NCBI GenBank assembly: GCA_963755195.1
Contig: CAVWIZ010000008.1
Location: 688,957 to 752,956 of the forward strand
Reading direction: 5' to 3'
Source: an uncultured Acidobacteriota bacterium
Lineage (GTDB): Bacteria > Acidobacteriota > Vicinamibacteria > Vicinamibacterales > CAVVIG01
DNA: 64,000 nucleotides
Positions within the stretch are counted from its first letter, which is position 1; each line of letters starts with the position of its first letter. This document shows positions 52,213 to 63,287 of this stretch, one piece after another. Both the position numbers and the translations under genes were made by a program. The notes below the pieces were generated by a model. That model was not told the origin of the DNA. It was given only the letters and a program-made list of their open reading frames with translations, and did no database searches.

Positions 52213-53780
52213 TCACGGGCGGCACACGAAATTCTTCGCGTCCTCGGCGTCGCCAGAGCCTGAGTACTGCGGGTGATTCGGATACGCGCACAGCGGACGC
52301 GTACGGCCTGGAAACGCCGCGCCCGTCGCGATCACTGAATCCGGCGGCGTGCCCTTCTCGACCCAGTCGACGACGGCGCCCAGCATGTCGAAGCTGTCTG
52401 TCGCCCGACCGCCGGCGCAGTGGCCCATGCCGGGCACCAGAAAGAAGCGGCTCCACGAGGACACCTTGTCCATGCCGCCGTTGTCCGCGCTCATCTTCTC
52501 GTAGTAGTCGATGGTGTCGAGCGCGGAGAACCACGGATCGCTGGCGCCGTGATAGAAGAGCAGCTTGCCGCCGCGAGACGAGAAGGTGCTGAGGTTCGTC
52601 CACCATTTCGTGTCGCCGACGGCCCGCGGATCTCGCGCCAGCGTCAGCGCTTCTTTGTCCACGTCCACGTCGGTCGACAGGTTCGCCGGACCCAGCGGAC
52701 CTGACCCGGGGCTCAGCAGACCCGGAATGCCGCCACCGCTGCGCGGTGATGCCGGTGTCGTACAGGAATCCCGGGTAGATCTGATTTCCGCGTGAGTCTC
52801 TGGGACCCGCGAAGGCCTTCTTGATGGCCGCGGTCTGCTGCGGCGTCAGGCACGCGTCGGTCTTCGCGCCCTTGCAGGTCAGCGCGGCCACGGGATCGAA
52901 ATCGCAGGCGCGGATGTCGAAGATCATGCCGTCCTTCACGCCGTCCTTCGCGTCGCAGACGTTGAGGAGCGTGTCGACGATCAACGTTCTTGTCGCCGTC
53001 CGAAAACACCTGGTCCGGAATCGGCTTGCCGGCGGCATCCTTCGGCGCAATCTGGTTCAACGCGATCGCGACCCATCGATCGCCCAGGCCCGAATACCCG
53101 GTGCGCATCGCCGGCGCTCCGGCGACGACGCCGTCGAAGTAGGTCGGATAGCGCTCGGTCATCAGCATCGCCTCGCGTCCGCCCGTCGAGCAGCCGGCGA
53201 AATACGAATGATCGGCGGGCCGGCCGTAGTACTGCGCGACGATCTGCTTGGCGAGCACGGCAACCCGGCCAACGGCCACGTACGCGAAGTCGAGGCTGGC
53301 CTGCTGATCGCGCATGAAGCTGCCGTCGAACGCGCCGCCGCTGCTCTGGTGGCCGGTGTCGGTGGTGACGACGGCGAATCCGCGGGCGAGTCCGGGCGTG
53401 CTGCCGGCAGCCTGCGCGCCAAGCGGCAGAGCGACCGTGCCGTTCAATCCGCCGCCGCCCTGAAACAGAAAGCGTCCGTTCCAGTTGTCCGGCAACGCGA
53501 CTGCAAAGCCAATCCCGTACGGCTTACCATCGACGCCGACGCGTCGATCGATGGTGCCGTCCACACGGCAATACGCCGGGAGACTGATCGCGGCGCCGCC
53601 GCGGCCGCCCCGACCCTGAGGCGCCGGGCCGGCTGGAACCGCCTGCGCTTTCGTGATGTCGAGCGCCACACCCGGCGCCTGAAACGTTGTCATCGCCGAG
53701 CACTTCGAGGACGCGTCCTGGCCCTGGGCGGCTGGCGCCACGAGCAACAGTGAACCCATCAGAATGTGGAAGATGCGCAT
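52213..53780 (-). CDS. Tannase/feruloyl esterase family hydrolase (frameshifted)
   Basis: [34 protein letters not shown] (CS-D-HC motif), RTRPLCAYP. Confidence 0.9.
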
Positions 53781-53845
53781 GCGGATAGCTTACATGAATG
53801 ACCGGGAAGCCGCCGCTGAGGAAGGACGGATTCGTGACAGGAAGA

Positions 53846-54208
53846 TCGACCGCACGCGCCCGCACTGCCGGTACCGCAGTTATGGCCTGCGAGTGAACCG
53901 GCAGCACGGACGCGTCACGTTTTGCTCAGAGCACGCCGTAGACTCGCGCCATCAGCGGCGTCGATCGCGCTCCCAGTTGTGGCGATCGCGGTCCCATTCG
54001 CGGCGATCGCGCTCGTAGCTACGCCAGTCGTGCCGATCCCAGCGCCGCTCCACGAACCTCGCGCGCGGGACCCAGCCACCAGCCACCCATCGGTGGCCGT
54101 GGTAGTAGCCGGGCTGCCAGACGTAGCCGGGGTACGGAGCCTGGCGATAGTACCCGTCATAGCCGTACGGGCCCGGCGCGACAACAACAGGCGGCGCGCC
54201 GATTCCGA
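53846..54208. repeat. 363-bp direct repeat, copy 1
   Basis: Aligns ungapped to 62350-62712; about 8 substitutions by manual count. Confidence 0.95.
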
Positions 54209-54305
54209 CATGGATCGAGAAGCGCGAGTCCGCGCTCGCAGTCGCCACGCTCAGCGCGCCGAACAGAACCGTCAGACCAGCCGTTCGCAGCATCATGCGT
54301 TTCAT
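53952..54305 (-). CDS. Small secreted YXWGXW-repeat-like protein with Arg/Asp-rich tail
   Basis: Signal peptide; PYPGYVWQPGYY, WVAGGWV; tail of (W/Y)xRDRR-like repeats; GGAGG RBS. Confidence 0.7.
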   Translation of the reverse strand: MKRMMLRTAGLTVLFGALSVATASADSRFSIHVGIGAPPVVVAPGPYGYDGYYRQAPYPGYVWQPGYYHGHRWVAGGWVPRARFVERRWDRHDWRSYERDRREWDRDRHNWERDRRR

Positions 54306-54331
54306 GACCGCCTCCATCTGCGGGGAGGGAG

Positions 54332-55048: not shown

Positions 55049-55538
55049 TTACACGGTCGGAGGGCGACCGCGCCTGTTATGGACGTATCGACCGATGAGG
55101 TAGTCGACAGAGAAGACTCCTGGTCCGCGCGTGAGGAGCAGCACGAGGATCGCGCCCCAGACCAGATGCTCATTGTACGCGTTGGGGTACACGAAGGTTT
55201 GAATAACAGCGATCATTCCCAGGAGCGGAAGCGTCGCGATGCGGGTTGCGAGTCCGAGAAAAAGAAGAATCGGGATCGTCAGCTCCTGGACCATGGCGAT
55301 GCGTGCCGCCACAGCCGGATCGAGCAACGGCACGCGATATTCCTCCTGAAACAGTCTGACCGCGAATTCCCAGGACTGGTACTTCAGGAGCCCCGCCTTG
55401 AAGAAGGTTGCCCCGACACCAATGCGTCCGGCGAGTTGAATGATCGACAGCGGGAAACGCGCCGAGCCTGACGCGCATCGCATCGAGCCACGCGATACCG
55501 GTCGAGTCAATCGCGGGCGTGGCCGGCTCGGGGCTCAC
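55049..55538 (-). CDS. DoxX-family membrane protein (BufD-like; frameshift near 55455)
   Basis: FFKAGLLK, LFQEEYRVP, ELTIPILLFLGLATR, QTFVYP, EHLVW, GPGVFSVD. Confidence 0.85.
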
Positions 55539-55541
55539 AGG

Positions 55542-56132
55542 TCAGCTCCCGTCGATTGTGCCGCCACTCGACGGACGAACTCTTCGCTCACTGAGGCGAT
55601 TCATCTGCAGCTCTCCTCGAAGGCCCCGAATCTCCAGCCAGACCTCCTCTTGCCGGAGCGCATAGGCGTCGGGCGCAGTGTCAGTCAGGAACAAGCCGAT
55701 CAGCTCGTCGAGTGCCCAGTCCAGGTGGATGTACTGCACGTTCGGCGACTCCTCGGTCGCCAGTGCCAGGCGGCCGAGGTGCCATTCAAGTTCGGCGAAC
55801 TGCGCCAGGTACGGCAGAGACCCGGCAGCGGGATGCGCGCCAAGGTACCGCGGGAAACCGTCGCCATACTCGGCGACGCACGGTCTGCACGGAGGATGCT
55901 CGCGAATGAAGGACGTCGCGACGTGAGTCACGAGATCGGAACCGACCAGCCACACGGTAGCCGGGAACCGTTCGACGAGCGCGCGGGTCAGGCTCGCCAC
56001 ATAGTGGCGCTGATGAATCGCAAGCCGGTGTTCGGGACGAGTCCCCCCTAACAGTACCGGCGCCACGGCCGCGCTGTTGCCGTCGACCAGCGCGTCACGA
56101 ATGCCGGCTTGAATGTCAGCCAGCGTAAGCAC
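55542..56132 (-). CDS. DUF2063 family MNIO partner protein (BufC-like)
   Basis: [43 protein letters not shown]; lies between DUF692 and DoxX. Confidence 0.8.
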
Positions 56133-56995
56133 GGCGATCCTCTCTCGCGGCTTCTCGAATGCGATCGGCTGCGGCGGCCTCTCCCGTCAGGACCGCCAAG
56201 GCCGGCAGATCGTTGTCCCATTCCACGATCGTGGGCTGCGGGCCGAAGCGGCGGATGGCATGGGCATACAGGTCCCATGCCGGTTCCGCCACGGCGTGCG
56301 CGTGGGTATCGACCAGCAATGTTCCACCTGGCGTCGCCTCATCCGCTTCGGGCGTGAAGCCCCCAAGGTGGAGTTCCGCGACCGCCTCAGCCGGGAACTC
56401 GTCGATGAAGCGATACGCGTCGTACCCCATGTTGTGGCCGCTGAGATAGGACGTTGCTGACATCACAGAGGAGCCGACAACCGGTCGCGTTCACCAGTGC
56501 GTGCAGAAACTCGAGCTCGGTCATGGTCGACGTCGCCAACGAGACGTAGGTTGAGGGATTCTCGATGACGTACGCGCGCCCCAGGACGTCCTGAACCTCC
56601 GCAAGATGCGCCGCGACCACGCGGAGCGTCTCTGCCGTGTAGGGCAACGGCAAGAGATCGTTGAGATACGCGCCACCCACTGTGGACCAGGCCAGGTGCC
56701 CAGAGACGAGCACCGGATTCAGCCGATCCACCAACGCCCGAAGTCGCGTCAGGTGCCCACGGTCGATGCCGTCGGCGCTGCCGATGGAGATGCCGACGGT
56801 GTGCACCGAGATCGGATAATCGCGAGCGAGATCCGTCAGTAACTCGAGTCCGTGCGGATTCGCGAGGAAGTTCTCCGGATGAATCTCGAGCCATCCGACG
56901 GATGGGCGAGTGGCCACCACCTCGGCAATGTGCGGAAGCCGAAGGCCGATGCCGGTCCGTTCAGCCGCGTGTCTGGCGTCACTGGTGATGGCCAC
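56116..56995 (-). CDS. DUF692 multinuclear non-heme iron oxidase (MNIO, BufB-like; frameshift near 56450)
   Basis: [68 protein letters not shown]. Confidence 0.9.
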
Positions 56996-57009
56996 GTTCC
57001 CTCTCCTCG

Positions 57010-57280
57010 TTACTTCGGTTGAAGGCTGCCGCCGACGATGCGGTCGCAGTAGCCCGCCGGCACGTAGATCCAGGCTTTCGGGTCGCTGGCTGAGCTTCGA
57101 CGATCCCCCACACGAGTTGTTGCCGGTCGAGGCGCAGTCGTTCTTGCCGGCCTTCGCGATGCCGTAGCACTTCTCCGTCTTGAACGCGGTGGGCGGCGGG
57201 ACCGGTTTCTGCGCCGAGAGCACGACGGGTGCGACAACGGCCACGGCCAGAGCGGATGCGATCAGATAACGAGTGTTCAT
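57010..57280 (-). CDS. DUF2282 bufferin-type RiPP precursor (BufA1-like; one-base frameshift near 57090)
   Basis: Signal peptide, then EKCYGIAKAGKNDCASTGNNSCGG...AWIYVPAGYCDRIVGG (four Cys). Confidence 0.9.
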
Positions 57281-57353
57281 GCGTACCTCTCCAATGAGTT
57301 GCGCGTCGCCAAATCGACGACCGGGCGGCCGGATATCGGCGGCCAGTGGTGTA

Positions 57354-57379
57354 TTCGGAGCCAGCGCGGGAAAGGTTAC
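57354..57379 (-). promoter_or_regulatory. SigF (ECF16)-type promoter for the buf operon
   Basis: Minus strand GTAACC-tttcccgcgctggctc(16)-CGAA. Confidence 0.8.
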
Positions 57380-57391
57380 GATGACGGTTCG

Positions 57392-57968
57392 ATGGATGAG
57401 TCCCCAGAGCCGGACGAGCACCTGAGCCGTCTCATGGCGCGTGCCCAGCAGGGCGACAGCAACGCCTACCTCACCCTGCTACGGGCGATTACGCCGCGGA
57501 TCCGGCAGCTCGTGCGGGCAAGGCGAGGGTTCCTCGGCGAAAGCGTTGTTGAAGACGTCGTGCAGGAGGTCCTCCTGTCGGTCCACACCGTGCGAGCGAC
57601 CTACGATCCGGCGCGCCCCCTCATGCCGTGGCTGTCGGCCATCGTACGGCATCGGCTGGCGGATGCAGGTCGGCGGTACGTTCGTCAAGGAGCGCACGAG
57701 ATTGGTGTCGACGACCTCGACGTAACCTTTCAGGCTCCCGTAGCGAATAGCCGTGAGGAGACGTTCGGCGATCCGGACGCCTTGGCACGAGGCCATTCAG
57801 GCGTTGCCGCCGGGCCAGCGCCAGGCGGTGGAGTTGCTCAAGTTGCGCGAACTCTCGCTGAAGGAGGCATCGGCGCTGACAGGATTGAGCGTTGGTGCGT
57901 TGAAACTTGCGACCCATCGCGCCATGGCATCGCTGCGACGGGCGCTTCGAGGGATTGACGAAGGATGA
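57392..57968 (+). CDS. ECF sigma-70 factor, SigF/ECF16 type (frameshift near 57785)
   Basis: LMARAQQGD, EDVVQEVLL, TYDPARPLMPWL, LPPGQRQAVELLKLRELSLKEA...KLATHR; followed by NrsF. Confidence 0.9.
57722..57747 (+). promoter_or_regulatory. Second SigF-type promoter, internal to the sigma gene
   Basis: GTAACC-tttcaggctcccgtag(16)-CGAA, ~220 bp upstream of the nrsF start. Confidence 0.65.
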
Positions 57969-58624
57969 ACACCGACGATCTGATTGACCGTCTCGGTCGC
58001 GACGTGACTGTGGCGAAGCCCTTGCCGGCGCCCGGGATGCGAACCGCTGTGTGGATGGTCTGGGCCCTGAGCTACCTCGTCGTGGTGGCCATGATGATGT
58101 TCGCGGTCATGTCATCGGCCGGAGTCACGCTCACCCCGCTCTATCTCGCGCAGCAAGGTGCGGCGTTGGTGACCGGGATCATGGCCGCGCGCGCCGCGTT
58201 TGCGTCGGTGATTCCTGGCGTGAACAACCGCGTCTGGATGATGCCCGCCATCGGCGCGGGAGTATGGAGCCTGTTGCTGTTATGGGCGGGCGTGCTCGAT
58301 CTGCAAGCGGTGGGGACACTCGGGGTGACCAGTCAGAGCGACTGGCCCTGCGTCGCCTCAATGACACTGGGCGGTCTCGTCGTCGGAGCCCCTCTCGTGT
58401 GGATGTTGCGGCGTGGCGCTCCGCTGACGCCTGGCCGAACGGCCTTCCTGGCCGCGTTGGCCGCGTTGAGCTTCGCCAATATCGAAGCGTGCCTGACGCG
58501 TCCACACGCGTTCGCCTTGACTGTCCTCCTGTGGCATGGAGGCACAGTCGCCGCGGTCGCAGCGCTGTGCGCGCTGACAGGCCGTCGCTGGTTGCGCTGG
58601 CCTGATATGGCGACGACGCAGTGA
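57965..58624 (+). CDS. nrsF: NrsF/DUF1109 membrane anti-sigma factor
   Basis: MNTDDLIDRL, ~6 TM helices, WPC, LRRGAP, ACL...WH; ATGA overlap with the sigma gene. Confidence 0.8.
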   Translation: MNTDDLIDRLGRDVTVAKPLPAPGMRTAVWMVWALSYLVVVAMMMFAVMSSAGVTLTPLYLAQQGAALVTGIMAARAAFASVIPGVNNRVWMMPAIGAGVWSLLLLWAGVLDLQAVGTLGVTSQSDWPCVASMTLGGLVVGAPLVWMLRRGAPLTPGRTAFLAALAALSFANIEACLTRPHAFALTVLLWHGGTVAAVAALCALTGRRWLRWPDMATTQ

Positions 58625-58687: not shown

Positions 58688-59779
58688 GTGCACATGGGCC
58701 CTACGTCAAACCGAATGACTGGCATGGTCGCCTGTGCAGTCGCCTGCGCGCTCGTCAGCCTGGTCGCTCAACCAACGGCTCAGCAGTCGGCGCTCCAGCC
58801 GACGCTCTATGACGTCCAGAAGCTCGGGCCCCAAATCGGAACGCGGGTGCCTGATTTCAGGCTGCTCGATCAGAAAGGACAGTCGCGGACGCTGGCATCC
58901 CTGATGGGGCCCAAGGGGCTCATGCTGGTGTTCTTCCGATCGGCGGACTGGTGACCCTATTGCAAGACGCAGCTCGTGGAGCTGCAAGGCCGTGTGGCGG
59001 AACTGAAGCGTCAGGGTCTCTCCCTGTCCGCCATTAGCTACGATCCTGTGGCCGTCCTGGCCGACTTTTCGAAGCGCCGTGGCATTTCGTTCCCGCTGTT
59101 GTCGGATCCGGGATCGGCCACCATCAAACGGTACGGGATTCTCAACACGACGGTACCCGAGACGAATCAACAGAGCTACGGCATTCCATTTCCCGGTACG
59201 TTCATGGTGAACACGCAAGGCGTGGTCACAACGCGTTTCTTCGAGCAGGCGTATCAGGAGCGAAGCACGGTCGGCAGCATCATGGCCAGACTCGGCAACA
59301 CGGTTGACGTGCAGGCCGCCACCATCACATCTCCGCAGCTCGAGATGACCTCGTTTGCAACCGACAGCACGGTTGCCCCCGGGACGCAATTCTCTCTGGT
59401 CCTCGATGTCCGGCCAGGGCGAGGGGTTCACGTGTACGCGCCCGGCGTCGACGGGTACAAGCCGATCGCGTTGTCGGTCGAGGCACAGCCCGGTCTCGTG
59501 ACGCGTCGTGCGCAGTATCCCCCGTCTGAGGACTACCATTTCAAGCCCTTGAACGAACACGTGCAGGTCTATCAGCGGCCGTTTCGGATCGTGCAGGACG
59601 TGTTGGTCGACCCATCGCCCCAGGGGCTCTCGGCGTTGAAGGATGTGTCTGTGTTGACGATCAAAGGCGTGCTCAACTACCAGGCGTGCGACGACAAGGT
59701 GTGCTTCACGCCCCAGTCGGTGCCCCTTACATGGACGTTGACGCTTCGACAGTTGGACCGCGAGCGCGCAAAGCCGTGA
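58688..59779 (+). CDS. Secreted selenoprotein: AhpC/TSA-like redoxin with UxxC motif fused to a DsbD-N-like domain (in-frame TGA at 58952-58954 read as Sec)
   Basis: ORFs 58688-58954 and 58976-59779 are in the same frame and join as FFRSADW-TGA-PYCKTQLVEL; PDFRLLDQ, AISYD, FPLLSD, PGTF; C-terminal HVYAP...YQACDDKVCFTP; AGGAGG RBS. Confidence 0.85.
58969..58985 (+). promoter_or_regulatory. Candidate bacterial SECIS hairpin
   Basis: GCAGCUC-GUG-GAGCUGC: perfect 7-bp stem, loop starts with G, 22 nt after the UGA. Confidence 0.7.
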
Positions 59780-59785
59780 CCCAAT

Positions 59786-60838
59786 TCAGCTATTTCCGCT
59801 CGAGCCAGGGAGGCTGAGCTTCGCGCGCACTCCGCCTTGGGGTGACGCCTCGAGATTGATCGACCCGCCATAGAGTTCGGCAAGGTCGCTCACGATGGCA
59901 AGGCCAAGGCCTGAGCCAGGCGCGGCTTCGTCGGCTCGTACGCCCCTCTGGAGAACCGCTTCCCGCAAGTTCGGCAGCGATGCCGTCTCCATCATCGTCC
60001 ACGATGATCGTCACGCGGTCCGGCGCCTCCGAAGGTCCGCCTCGACGCTGCATCGGTGGCAACGATACCCTCGACACTCACGACGACTGTCGAGCGCGCC
60101 CATTTGCAGGCGTTGTCCATGAGGTTGCCCAGCATCTCGTCGAGATCCTCCCGCTGAGCGCGAACGGTCACGTCCTCGGCCACCTGCACGTCGACGGCGA
60201 TGCTGCGCTCGGCGTGCACGCGGAGCAACGCCCGCGCGAGGCCGTCGGCCGAGCTCCTCACGCTCGACCGCGCACCGGACATCGCTCCGGACGCCACGGC
60301 ACGCGCGTGCGCGAGGTGGTAGTCCACCTGTCGTCGCATGCGCTCGACCTGCTGGTCGATGGCAGCCGCGATCTCGTGCTGGCCCGCGCCGCGGGCGCGC
60401 TCGGCCTCCTGCGCGAGGATGGCCAGCGGCGTCTTCAAACCGTGGGCGAGATCGCCGGACTTGGCGATGGCGCGCTGAATCGCCTGCTCGCGATGATCGA
60501 GCAGGGCGTTCAGGTCGTCCACGAGCGGCTGGACCTCGGCAGGATAGGCACCGTCCATCCGCCGCTCGCGACCGGCTCGCAGCCCGTTCAACCGGCTGCG
60601 CAGGTTGTCCACCGATGCCAGGCCGCCCCTCGCCACGACCAGTCCCGCGATCATGCAGAACACGGCCGTGAGGATGACGACGGGACTCTGCAGGAACCGG
60701 TGCAGGTGCATGGCGACATGGAGCCGCGACTGCTGCTCCATGAGGAAGGTAAAGGGAACCGCGCTGACAAACAGCAGGCCGACCGTCCAGAGGACGCTCG
60801 AGACCAGCAGCCGGCCGCGCAGCGATCGCCACTCTCAC
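59786..60838 (-). CDS. Sensor histidine kinase (frameshifted)
   Basis: Two TM helices, PAEVQPLV, LAHGLKTPL (H box), GNLMDNACKW (N box), DDDGDG, GSGLGLAI. Confidence 0.85.
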
Positions 60839-61491
60839 GATCCGATCCGGTAGCCAAGGCCACGCGCGGTTTCGATGATGCCGGCGCCGAGCTTGCGACG
60901 CAGCCGGGCGACGAACACTTCCACCGTGTTCGAGTCGCGGTCGGCATCCTGCGCGTAGATGTGTTCGGTCAGCTCGCTCTGCGGCACCACCCGATCGCGG
61001 TTGTGCATCAGGTAGGACAGGACACGGAATTCGTGGCTGGTCAGCCTGACTGGCTGGCCGTCGCGCGTCACGCGCGCCAGGCGCGGATCGAGCGTCACGG
61101 CCCCGCAGGCGAGCGCCGGTCTCGGCTGGCCGTTGGCACGGCGAATCAGGCCGCGCAACCTGGCCAGCACCTCCTCCATCTGAAACGGCTTCGTCACATA
61201 GTCGTCCGCGCCGTCGTCGATGCCTTTGACCCGCTCGTGCCAGCTGCCGCGGGCTGTCAGCACGAGCACCGGGACCATCAGCGCGGCGTCACGCCAGCCG
61301 CGGAGGAGCGTCAGGCCGTCCACGCGGGGCAGGCCGAGGTCGAGGATGACGGCGTCGTAGGTTTCGGTGCGGACGAGAAAGTCGGCCTGCTCGCCGTCGG
61401 CGGCGCAATCCACCGCGTATCCGGCCTCGCCAACGGCCTGTGCCAGCTGGCGCGACAGGGCCGCTTCGTCTTCCACGACCAGAATCCGCAC
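60835..61491 (-). CDS. OmpR/PhoP-family response regulator
   Basis: MRILVVEDE, LDLGLP, LTAR, GADDYVTKPF, SNTVEVFVARLRRKL, RGLGY. Confidence 0.92.
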   Translation of the reverse strand: MRILVVEDEAALSRQLAQAVGEAGYAVDCAADGEQADFLVRTETYDAVILDLGLPRVDGLTLLRGWRDAALMVPVLVLTARGSWHERVKGIDDGADDYVTKPFQMEEVLARLRGLIRRANGQPRPALACGAVTLDPRLARVTRDGQPVRLTSHEFRVLSYLMHNRDRVVPQSELTEHIYAQDADRDSNTVEVFVARLRRKLGAGIIETARGLGYRIGS

Positions 61492-61576: not shown

Positions 61577-62347
61577 ATGACATCACCATTTGTGTACGAC
61601 TTCGGGTACCCCTGGCCGATCACCTGGATTCACCTCATTCCGCTTGCGCTTGGACTGGCCGCGGCAGCGTTGGGGGTCAGACTCGGATGGCGACGCTGGG
61701 TGGTGGGACTCTGGGGCGTCATCGGAATCTGGGGGATCGTCGGGCTGATCCTGACCCACACGATGATGGGAGGCCTGAACGCGCCGCAGCGGCTGCCGTC
61801 GGATCAGTTCATGGCCTCCGGCCGGGGACGCGTGCTCGACGTCGGCGCCGGCTCGGGCCGTGCGCTCATCGGACTGCTGCTGGCACGTCCGCAGGCGACC
61901 GGCACCGCTCTCGACATCTACACCGGCTTCTTCGGCATCACCGACAACACGCCCGAGCGCATGATGCGCAACGCGAGGATTGCCGGGGTCGCCAACCGCG
62001 CCGACACCGTGACGGCGGATGCCACGAAGATGCCGCTGCCCGACGCCAGCTACGACGCGGCGATCAGCTCCTACGCCATCGACCACATGGGCCGGGAAGG
62101 CACGCCGAAGGCCATCCGGGAAGTGGCCCGGGTGCTCAAGCCGAACGGCGAGTTCCTGCTGGAGATTGTGAACCCGGACATCTGGGTCAAGGTGATGATG
62201 CCGATCCCGCACTTCGGCCTGAATGCACACTTCAAGCCCGACCCGGCCCGCTGGCGCGCGATGCTGAAGGCCGCCGGCTTCGAGGTGATTGAGGAGGGAA
62301 CCGGGCCGGCGACGCTGTACTGGCTGGCGCGCAAGCAGCAGACCTAG
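61577..62347 (+). CDS. Membrane-anchored class I SAM-dependent methyltransferase
   Basis: Two N-terminal TM helices; VLDVGAGSG, ADATKMPLPDASYD, RVLKPNG. Confidence 0.85.
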   Translation: MTSPFVYDFGYPWPITWIHLIPLALGLAAAALGVRLGWRRWVVGLWGVIGIWGIVGLILTHTMMGGLNAPQRLPSDQFMASGRGRVLDVGAGSGRALIGLLLARPQATGTALDIYTGFFGITDNTPERMMRNARIAGVANRADTVTADATKMPLPDASYDAAISSYAIDHMGREGTPKAIREVARVLKPNGEFLLEIVNPDIWVKVMMPIPHFGLNAHFKPDPARWRAMLKAAGFEVIEEGTGPATLYWLARKQQT

Positions 62348-62349
62348 AG

Positions 62350-62712
62350 TCGACCGCACGCGCCCGCACTGCCGGTACCGCAGCTATGGCCTGCGAGTGA
62401 ACCGGCAGCACGGACGCGTCATGTTTCGCTCAGAGCACGCCGTAGACTCGTGCCATCAGCGGCGTCGATCGCGCTCCCAGTTGCGGCGATCGCGGTCCCA
62501 TTCGCGGCGATCGCGCTCGTAGCTGCGCCAGTCGCGCCGATCCCAGCGCCGCTCCACGAACCTCGCGCGCGGGACCCAGCCACCAGCCACCCATCGGTGG
62601 CCGTGGTAGTAGCCGGGCTGCCAGACGTAGCCGGGGTACGGAGCCTGGCGATAGTACCCGTCATAGCCGTACGGGCCCGGCGCAACAACAACAGGCGGCG
62701 CGCCGATTCCGA
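62350..62712. repeat. 363-bp direct repeat, copy 2
   Basis: Matches 53846-54208. Confidence 0.95.
62456..62712 (-). pseudogene. 5'-truncated copy of the YXWGXW-like gene
   Basis: Nearly identical 3' part of 53952-54305; lacks the signal peptide, RBS and start. Confidence 0.75.
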
Positions 62713-62750
62713 ATTGCACGCTTCAGCGCCTACGAATCATCCACTTCCCG

Positions 62751-63287
62751 CTATTCAACCGAGAGAATCAAGGCTTCGGTCCAGGTGATGTCGAGCCTGT
62801 CGCCCACCTTGACCTTCGCCAGCGCCGTCTTGTCCTCGACGCGGCCGCTGTACTTCCAGCCGTTCGGACCGGCGAACGTGATCGACGGCACCGCCTGATC
62901 GATCGCCGTGATCAATGCCGTAATCGTCCGCTGCCGCGACAAGGTGCCGGCGGGTCTGCTTTCAGACCTGACGAGCGCTCCCGACGCGCTGTCGACGTTC
63001 TTCTCGCTCGGCGCCTTCAGGCGCATCACGATGTTCTCGTAGTACTTGGCGGTGATCTTGTCGCCGACCTTCAACGTGTCGAACCGCTTGATGCTCTCCG
63101 GAAAGTAGAAGATGTCGTACGTCCCGTCCGGCCTCTTCACGGTGACTTCGCGCGTCGATTTCTCGATGGCCTCGACGCTGGCTGTGACCGTTTTTGTTTC
63201 GCCGGTGAGCGTCTTGGTTTGCGCCGCGGCCGGGACCGCCGCCAGGGCCAGGATTCCGGTGACCGCGAACATACTGAGCGTCTTCAT
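62751..63287 (-). CDS. Secreted hypothetical protein (two OB-fold-like halves)
   Basis: Signal peptide; internal duplication TASVEAI...LKVGDKI / TALITAI...VKVGDRL. Confidence 0.7.
   Translation of the reverse strand: MKTLSMFAVTGILALAAVPAAAQTKTLTGETKTVTASVEAIEKSTREVTVKRPDGTYDIFYFPESIKRFDTLKVGDKITAKYYENIVMRLKAPSEKNVDSASGALVRSESRPAGTLSRQRTITALITAIDQAVPSITFAGPNGWKYSGRVEDKTALAKVKVGDRLDITWTEALILSVE

What the first reader, a model, noticed from the sequence alone, without database searches (positions are those of the whole stretch)
57354..57747. Two exact GTAACC-N16-CGAA promoters, one embedded in the sigma factor's own coding sequence
Seen: GTAACCttt...CGAAta occurs upstream of bufA (minus strand, 57354-57379) and again inside the sigma ORF (plus strand, 57722-57747, encoding VTFQAPVAN in the region 2-4 linker). 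Both have a 16-nt spacer and share the flanking ttt and ta. Established: GTAACC-N16-CGAA is the consensus reported for Caulobacter sigma-F (ECF16). Inference: the sigma factor induces its anti-sigma and the downstream selenoprotein but not itself. That is a dual-coded negative-feedback loop, and it places the selenoprotein in the regulon.
Basis: partly seen in the sequence, partly recalled or inferred. Interest (0 to 1): 0.7.

Follow-up and report, generated by a model that had tools for sequence, protein, structure and literature searches.

The report
Sigma gene hides its inhibitor's promoter
A metal/oxidant-stress sigma factor gene carries, inside its own coding sequence, a conserved copy of the DNA signal that related sigma factors are known to recognise, which likely lets it switch on its inhibitor rather than itself; this feedback layout is known from other sigma families, but we did not find it described for this one.

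Summary
Both motifs are real and are the two best-scoring sites in the 6.66-Mb genome under a matrix trained only on non-coding sites. The locus is a SigF/NrsF-type (ECF16) pair beside a bufferin operon. The internal copy is constrained as DNA: 151 of 167 homologous genes have it at the same codons, and the Val codon is GTA in 69 of 71 against 6% elsewhere. These genes mostly lack an upstream self-promoter (2 of 92, shuffles 2 of 92), whereas the five studied ECF16 genes for which I saw data have one. In an NrsF-anchored sample of 93, 27 are internal, 29 upstream, 0 both, but a tree-aware test is not significant. No transcription data exist here. The selenoprotein is well supported; its place in the regulon is only partly supported (after nrsF in 7 of 15 close relatives). 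The sigma gene has a one-base insertion here, probably an assembly error. Precedents: E. coli rseAP3, C. glutamicum PrshA. This scan already noted the embedded promoter on other DNA (e1-1533276, e1-2457182). Verdict: new variant of a known kind.

The parts
57354..57379 (-). ECF16-type promoter motif (GTAACCTTT-N13-CGAAT) in front of the bufferin precursor; predicted start near 57347
   Evidence: divergent copy in 70 of 95 homolog loci with at least 300 nt upstream
57722..57747 (+). Second copy of the motif inside the sigma gene (codons 111-119 from ATG 57392, region 2-4 linker); predicted start near 57753-57755, about 210 nt before nrsF
   Evidence: start site inferred from spacing in B. japonicum (PMC3420878)
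57377..57382 (+). TACGAT, candidate housekeeping -10 hexamer for a nearly leaderless sigma transcript, overlapping the -35 of the divergent promoter
   Evidence: TACnAT in 12 of 18 loci where the divergent -35 lies within 14 nt of the start, 1 of 41 where it is farther; most of the 12 are kin; too weak for the consensus scan
57392..57968 (+). ECF sigma factor (SigF/ECF16 type); read in two frames here because of a one-base insertion near 57789
   Evidence: Sigma70_r2 and Sigma70_r4_2 on the two pieces; insertion absent from the 4 relatives aligned and from most covering contigs
57965..58624 (+). nrsF anti-sigma (PF06532), start overlapping the sigma stop by 4 nt; six hydrophobic segments; Cys129 and Cys176
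58694..59779 (+). Predicted exported AhpC/TSA-redoxin + DsbD_N protein with in-frame UGA at 58952-58954 (W-U-P-Y-C); start may be GTG 58688
58969..58985 (+). GCAGCUC-GUG-GAGCUGC hairpin 14 nt after the UGA, SECIS-like
   Evidence: 6-7 bp hairpin (-7.8 to -11.6 kcal/mol) in 7 of 7 UGA forms, -5.6 or weaker in 10 of 10 Cys forms
57010..57280 (-). bufA-like precursor (DUF2282), one-base insertion near 57090
55049..56996 (-). bufB (MNIO/DUF692), bufC (DUF2063), bufD (DoxX); each with a one-base insertion in this assembly

Best explanation
The sigma gene contains a conserved copy of the ECF16 promoter motif in its region 2-4 linker codons, and this copy likely acts as a sigma-dependent promoter that would raise the anti-sigma NrsF (and here probably the downstream selenoprotein) without raising the sigma itself. 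Inferred cycle: a housekeeping promoter makes a low level of sigma-nrsF message; NrsF holds the sigma at the membrane; a periplasmic metal or oxidant signal frees it (shown for Caulobacter and Bradyrhizobium homologs, not here); the holoenzyme fires the divergent bufferin promoter and the internal promoter; the internal transcript lacks the first about 120 sigma codons, so only NrsF and co-transcribed genes rise and the response is damped. Polymerase on the divergent promoter may also cover the sigma's own candidate -10 (weaker inference). Shown: motif, position, DNA-level conservation, lack of an upstream copy. Inferred: promoter activity, start site, feedback, read-through to the redoxin.
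For: 151 of 167 homolog loci carry G[TA]AAC[CTA]-N16-CGAA at the same codons, 128 exactly; loci were collected by region-2 and region-4 peptide patterns, not the linker. At 80% dereplication (83 genes): Val GTA 69/71 vs 61/988 elsewhere; Thr ACC 66/78 vs 201/597; the codon carrying CG is xCG in 74/78 although the residue varies (Ala 38, Thr 25, Pro 10, Ser 1; background 45-51%); at 70% dereplication GTA 43/43. These two columns have the highest codon fixation of 38 four-fold columns. Spacer 16 in 89 of 95. Internal and divergent sites share non-core preferences (C84/88, T98/97, T91/88, T83/78 %; r 0.63, 0 of 10000 permutations). Matrix from non-coding sites ranks the window's two sites first and second in the genome. 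Where the motif is fully lost the VTF..AN residues go too (L087, L093, L110). Labels span Acidobacteriota, Alpha-, Beta-, Gammaproteobacteria and Gemmatimonadota. Tested precedent for the same logic: C. glutamicum sigH-rshA; E. coli rseAP3 maps to rpoE codon about 116, also the linker.
Against: No start site, RNA read or reporter for any gene of this type: no RNA holder was listed and the laid contigs cannot show starts. Exclusivity of internal and upstream copies is not established once kinship is counted (independent pairs, median p 1; 4 changes on the tree); 2 of 92 internal-type loci score at least 12 bits upstream and L233 has a near-match upstream as well. The redoxin follows nrsF in 7 of 15 close relatives (one truncated) and has no motif in front in L102, L145, L146. 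A housekeeping -10 is seen in only 35 of 92 internal-type loci (control 9). The sigma gene is frameshifted in this assembly.
Confidence: 0.72

Rival explanations
1. The internal site binds the holoenzyme, but its main job is to interfere with or titrate transcription of the sigma gene itself (roadblock or decoy); extra NrsF is incidental.
For: The site lies on the path of polymerase transcribing the sigma; perfect-consensus sites can be slow to escape (general knowledge). It is kept even where nothing regulon-like follows nrsF.
Against: Always on the sense strand, with the -10 end 205-229 nt before the sigma stop in most loci, with nrsF overlapping or abutting that stop; both precedents make a real anti-sigma transcript.
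Confidence: 0.1
2. The site is an active promoter whose product that matters is something else: a region-4-only sigma fragment, a leader RNA or the downstream genes such as the selenoprotein.
For: A start codon lies 4-9 nt after CGAA in 31 of 95 loci, in frame with region 4 in 8; the about 210-nt leader could be regulatory, as for E. coli rseAP3; thiol-redox genes follow nrsF in some loci.
Against: 64 of 95 have no such start; the leader folds no better than shuffles (z -0.44); downstream genes vary (redoxin in 8 of 73 internal-type loci with 1.5 kb downstream); nrsF is the one recurring cargo.
Confidence: 0.1
3. In this organism the sigma gene is truly frameshifted and the circuit is dead, although the motif is inherited from working relatives.
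For: One extra base near 57789 splits regions 2 and 4.
Against: Five single-base insertions fall in five genes within 2.4 kb, each absent from the relatives that cover it; selA is split too; most environmental contigs covering 57789 lack the base. This pattern fits assembly error.
Confidence: 0.06
4. The match is a by-product of a conserved VTF..AN protein motif or chance.
For: The bare pattern occurs at chance frequency genome-wide; the linker does contact polymerase and template DNA in ECF sigmas (PMC6372665).
Against: GTA is 2.6% of Val codons in this genome yet 69/71 at this position; xCG is kept across four residues; the linker is described as non-conserved and is unstructured in the model.
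Confidence: 0.02

Closest known systems
Caulobacter crescentus/vibrioides SigF-NrsF with buf1ABCD (ECF16; PMC3511200, PMC11626156, PMC8224329)
   Same: ECF sigma plus NrsF with two Cys, divergent DUF2282-DUF692-DUF2063-DoxX operon, same GTAACC-N16-CGAA motif.
   Different: Caulobacter sigF has the motif upstream of itself and is induced with nrsF under copper (log2 4.4 vs 4.2); here the copy is inside the gene and none is upstream. I did not see the Caulobacter sigF sequence, so an internal copy there is untested.
Other studied ECF16 pairs: S. meliloti RpoE7, B. japonicum EcfF and EcfS, Brucella BcrS, Azospira SigF, C. metallidurans RpoQ
   Same: NrsF-type anti-sigma and the same promoter class.
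   Different: Upstream self-promoters reported for RpoE7, EcfF, BcrS, Azospira SigF; RpoQ-dependent start 24 bp upstream of rpoQ and none listed inside it. The S. meliloti GR4 gene has the upstream and no internal motif; the EcfS protein lacks the VTF..N linker.
Corynebacterium glutamicum sigH-rshA (PMC3489674)
   Same: Same logic, shown by Northern blot and primer extension: operon from housekeeping promoters, SigH-dependent promoter inside sigH drives only the anti-sigma, proposed to shut the response down.
   Different: Different ECF group, soluble ZAS anti-sigma, different motif.
E. coli rseAP3 inside rpoE (PMC8595263); S. meliloti rpoE6 (PMC6180224)
   Same: Sigma-dependent promoter inside the sigma ORF; in E. 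coli the start is 228 nt before rseA and the motif maps to codon about 116, the linker.
   Different: Both also keep upstream autoregulation; different groups and motifs.

Membership tests
ECF16 (SigF/NrsF) | ECF sigma with regions 2 and 4 only | tested here: met
   (two pieces in this assembly; intact in homologs)
ECF16 (SigF/NrsF) | DUF1109/NrsF anti-sigma at position +1 | tested here: met
   PF06532 65 bits, cut-off 26.8
ECF16 (SigF/NrsF) | Six transmembrane helices and two conserved cysteines in the anti-sigma | tested here: met
   Six hydrophobic segments by hydropathy, Cys129 and Cys176. Across internal-type relatives the second Cys is kept in only 22 of 75
ECF16 (SigF/NrsF) | GTAACC-N16-CGAA target motif before neighbouring genes | tested here: met
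ECF16 (SigF/NrsF) | Formal assignment by the ECF-group HMMs | not testable with these tools
   No ECF-group library; best NCBIfam hits PRK12512/12536/12539 lie under their cut-offs
Autoregulated ECF16 circuit (as in the studied members) | Self-promoter upstream of the sigma gene | tested here: not met
   Best plus-strand score -0.5 bits in 57000-57400
Internal anti-sigma promoter circuit (PrshA/rseAP3 type) | Cognate motif inside the sigma ORF, sense strand, before the anti-sigma | tested here: met
Internal anti-sigma promoter circuit (PrshA/rseAP3 type) | Sigma-dependent transcript starting there | not testable with these tools
   no RNA holder listed; contigs only
Bufferin cluster | DUF2282 precursor, MNIO, DUF2063, DoxX beside SigF/NrsF | tested here: met
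   (fragments score under equivalog cut-offs because genes are split)
Bacterial selenoprotein | In-frame UGA aligned with Cys in homologs, downstream hairpin, SelA/SelB/tRNA-Sec in genome | tested here: met
   the hairpin alone is not better than shuffles (z -0.41); SECIS rules recalled, not looked up; SelD not searched

The most novel reading that the evidence does not exclude
A large, multi-phylum branch of ECF16 has swapped positive autoregulation for pure negative feedback by moving its promoter into the sigma's own linker codons, possibly more than once, with the divergent promoter also occluding the sigma's housekeeping -10; the linker is a recurrent hiding place for anti-sigma promoters in unrelated ECF groups (same position in E. 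coli rpoE), and this explains why predicted ECF16 promoters (TTC / TAC-TAAC) 'do not match experimental data': upstream searches found the divergent promoter on the wrong strand.
Probability: 0.35. Interest if true: 0.65.

Novelty: new variant of a known kind. Interest (0 to 1): 0.45.

Why it matters
ECF promoter prediction assumes an upstream self-promoter on the sense strand (PMC7776599, passages). A common ECF16 type (27 of 93 NrsF-linked sigmas sampled) lacks one and keeps the motif in coding DNA. That likely accounts for a stated discrepancy in the ECF classification, whose ECF16 motif reads as the reverse complement of the real one, and which was then used as -35 AATTCG / -10 GGTTAC in a 2026 promoter study. 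It gives a clean test, by synonymous changes, of positive versus negative feedback within one sigma family, warns that recoding such sigmas for synthetic switches removes a hidden promoter, and tentatively links bufferin/metal stress to a periplasmic selenoprotein.

Tried and rejected
No RNA holder listed; four small-share runs laid as contigs gave no start sites and are no evidence on expression. B. japonicum TSS table: no internal start in ecfS or ecfF, uninformative because EcfS lacks the linker motif and cells were uninduced. Tree-aware exclusivity test not significant; the careful tree did not finish, so quick and FastTree trees were used. A separate promoter or terminator between nrsF and the redoxin: none by scan, no special fold (z -0.72); a TTGCTG-N18-TAAGGT look-alike is not kept in relatives. 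A conserved region-4-only ORF from the internal start: 8 of 95, rejected as general. Genome-wide enrichment of the bare motif: none. Rows set aside: 10 of 105 loci with under 300 nt upstream or no anchor; 4 of 100 NrsF loci without a sigma hit and 1 fragment; L132 was mislabelled upstream-type because its contig begins inside the gene (it has the internal motif). One genome (G613) was not scored. Supplements of bioRxiv preprints and subscription papers (Staron 2009, Stockwell 2012) were not seen and could mention an internal ECF16 promoter.

Full report
Observation. GTAACC-N16-CGAA stands exactly twice in the window, 57354-57379 (-) and 57722-57747 (+), against 0.04 expected. Kohler 2012 gives this as the Caulobacter sigma-F motif (PMC3511200; abstract, first part of the text, passages and Discussion seen). 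Genome-wide the bare pattern is at chance level (5 vs about 3.9). A matrix trained on 114 non-coding sites from other loci ranks these two sites first and second in 6.66 Mb (24.5 bits each, next 20.8).

Anatomy. Minus strand: DUF2282 precursor, MNIO, DUF2063, DoxX, a bufferin cluster (PMC11626156, passages). Plus strand: ECF sigma (ATG 57392), nrsF (57965-58624, 4-nt overlap), and after 69 nt an AhpC/TSA + DsbD_N gene with in-frame UGA. The closest named homologs are labelled Vicinamibacterales/Acidobacteriota. The sigma, bufA, bufB, bufC and bufD each carry a one-base insertion absent from the aligned relatives that cover them, and selA is split likewise, so assembly error is the likely cause; this is inferred, not shown.

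Is the internal copy selected as DNA? I gathered 167 homologous loci (7, 80, 80; the tools kept the best 80 of 523 and of 547). The motif lies at the same codons in 151 (128 exact). At 80% dereplication (83 genes) Val is GTA in 69 of 71 (background 61 of 988), Thr ACC in 66 of 78, Phe TTT in 64 of 74 (background 74 of 216), and the codon holding CG is xCG in 74 of 78 across Ala, Thr, Pro and Ser. Among 38 four-fold columns these Val and Thr columns are the most fixed (0.97, 0.85; next 0.75). Glu-Thr (GAAACC) variants keep the -10 and spacing. Internal and divergent sites share their non-core preferences (r 0.63). The linker is unstructured in the model and called non-conserved for ECF sigmas (PMC6372665, passages).

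Does the sigma lack a self-promoter? In 95 loci with at least 300 nt upstream none has a strict sense-strand copy and 70 have a divergent one. With the matrix, 2 of 92 internal-type loci reach 12 bits upstream, as do 2 of 92 shuffles; 0 of 27 upstream-type loci reach it in the linker. A sample anchored on NrsF rather than on this sigma (about 950 genomes of two classes centred on G063 and G065 and of the window's phylum; 93 genes after dereplication) gives 27 internal, 29 upstream, 37 neither, 0 both. Against this: the types are clustered by descent and the independent-pairs test is not significant; L233 may have both. The window's sigma sits in an 85-row branch with 77 internal-type genes (support 86, quick tree); a distant group with the motif a few codons later (L213, L215, L216, L222, L229, L244) hints at a second origin, untested. 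A housekeeping-like -10 precedes 35 of 92 internal-type starts (control window 9) against 2 of 23 upstream-type; in this window it is TACGAT overlapping the divergent -35.

Selenoprotein. SelA, SelB and tRNA-Sec are present. UGA alternates with TGT/TGC in homologs, and the hairpin after it is strong in 7 of 7 UGA forms and weak in 10 of 10 Cys forms. Regulon membership is weaker: no terminator-like site in the gap; directly after nrsF in 7 of 15 close relatives; directly after bufD, under the other promoter, in L079 and L100; but with no motif in front in L102, L145, L146. I put co-transcription here at about 0.6.

Mechanism. Basal sigma-nrsF message from a housekeeping promoter; signal-dependent release from NrsF (shown in homologs: PMC3511200, PMC3420878 passages); activation of the bufferin operon and of an internal transcript that starts about 210 nt before nrsF and cannot encode a whole sigma; NrsF rises and ends the response. 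Everything after the sequence facts is inferred; no transcript data were available.

Known systems. Studied ECF16 pairs have upstream self-promoters: Caulobacter, B. japonicum EcfF, S. meliloti RpoE7, Brucella BcrS, Azospira, C. metallidurans RpoQ (passages and supplement rows). The logic is that of C. glutamicum PrshA (abstract and passages) and E. coli rseAP3 (passages), whose motif I map to rpoE codon about 116, the same linker. I found no description of an internal ECF16 promoter in searches of the open library; subscription papers were not covered. The ECF reclassification supplement (PMC7826278, supplement passages only) says ECF16 predicted motifs (TTC; TAC or TAAC) do not match experiment; these are the reverse complement of CGAA and GTAACC, which is what an upstream search returns when only the divergent promoter is there (my inference). 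Two earlier notes of this scan saw the embedded promoter on other DNA; they are AI notes and add no independent support.

Verdict. Observation confirmed; dual coding well supported; feedback role likely (0.72); selenoprotein link partial. New variant of a known kind; interest 0.45.

Noticed in passing
NrsF column of window residue 176; loci L004-L263: The second conserved NrsF cysteine, needed for peroxide release in OsrA (PMC3420878 abstract), is Cys in only 22 of 75 internal-type anti-sigmas and Arg in 46, while the first is kept in 74 of 75; many may sense a different signal.
   Followed up: partly
PMC7826278 supplement; PMC13492112 Table 4: The database ECF16 consensus (-35 AATTCG, -10 GGTTAC) is the reverse complement of the experimentally mapped promoter.
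   Followed up: partly
G000:C2:116729-116820 and 121400-121491: Two strong tRNA-Sec matches 4.7 kb apart, the second next to selA-selB.
   Followed up: no
L267-L292: A separate Acidobacteriota branch of NrsF-linked sigmas has neither motif; five have a distant redoxin about 1 kb after nrsF, with UGA and the same hairpin in L291.
   Followed up: partly
G000:C7:9914 (-) and C3:263949 (+): Next-best matrix sites (20.8 and 20.3 bits, spacers 17 and 15); possible further targets.
   Followed up: no
window 53750-54320 and 62290-62790: Near-duplicate stretch encoding a small Tyr/Gly/Arg-rich exported-looking protein (similar ORFs at 53952-54317 and 62456-62719).
   Followed up: no
L293 (Paraburkholderia fungorum plasmid): Internal-type sigma directly after merR of a mercury-resistance operon, with the bufferin genes downstream of nrsF under their own copy of the motif.
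   Followed up: partly
window 59786-61491 (-): Response regulator and histidine kinase converge on the redoxin; no ECF16 motif found there.
   Followed up: partly
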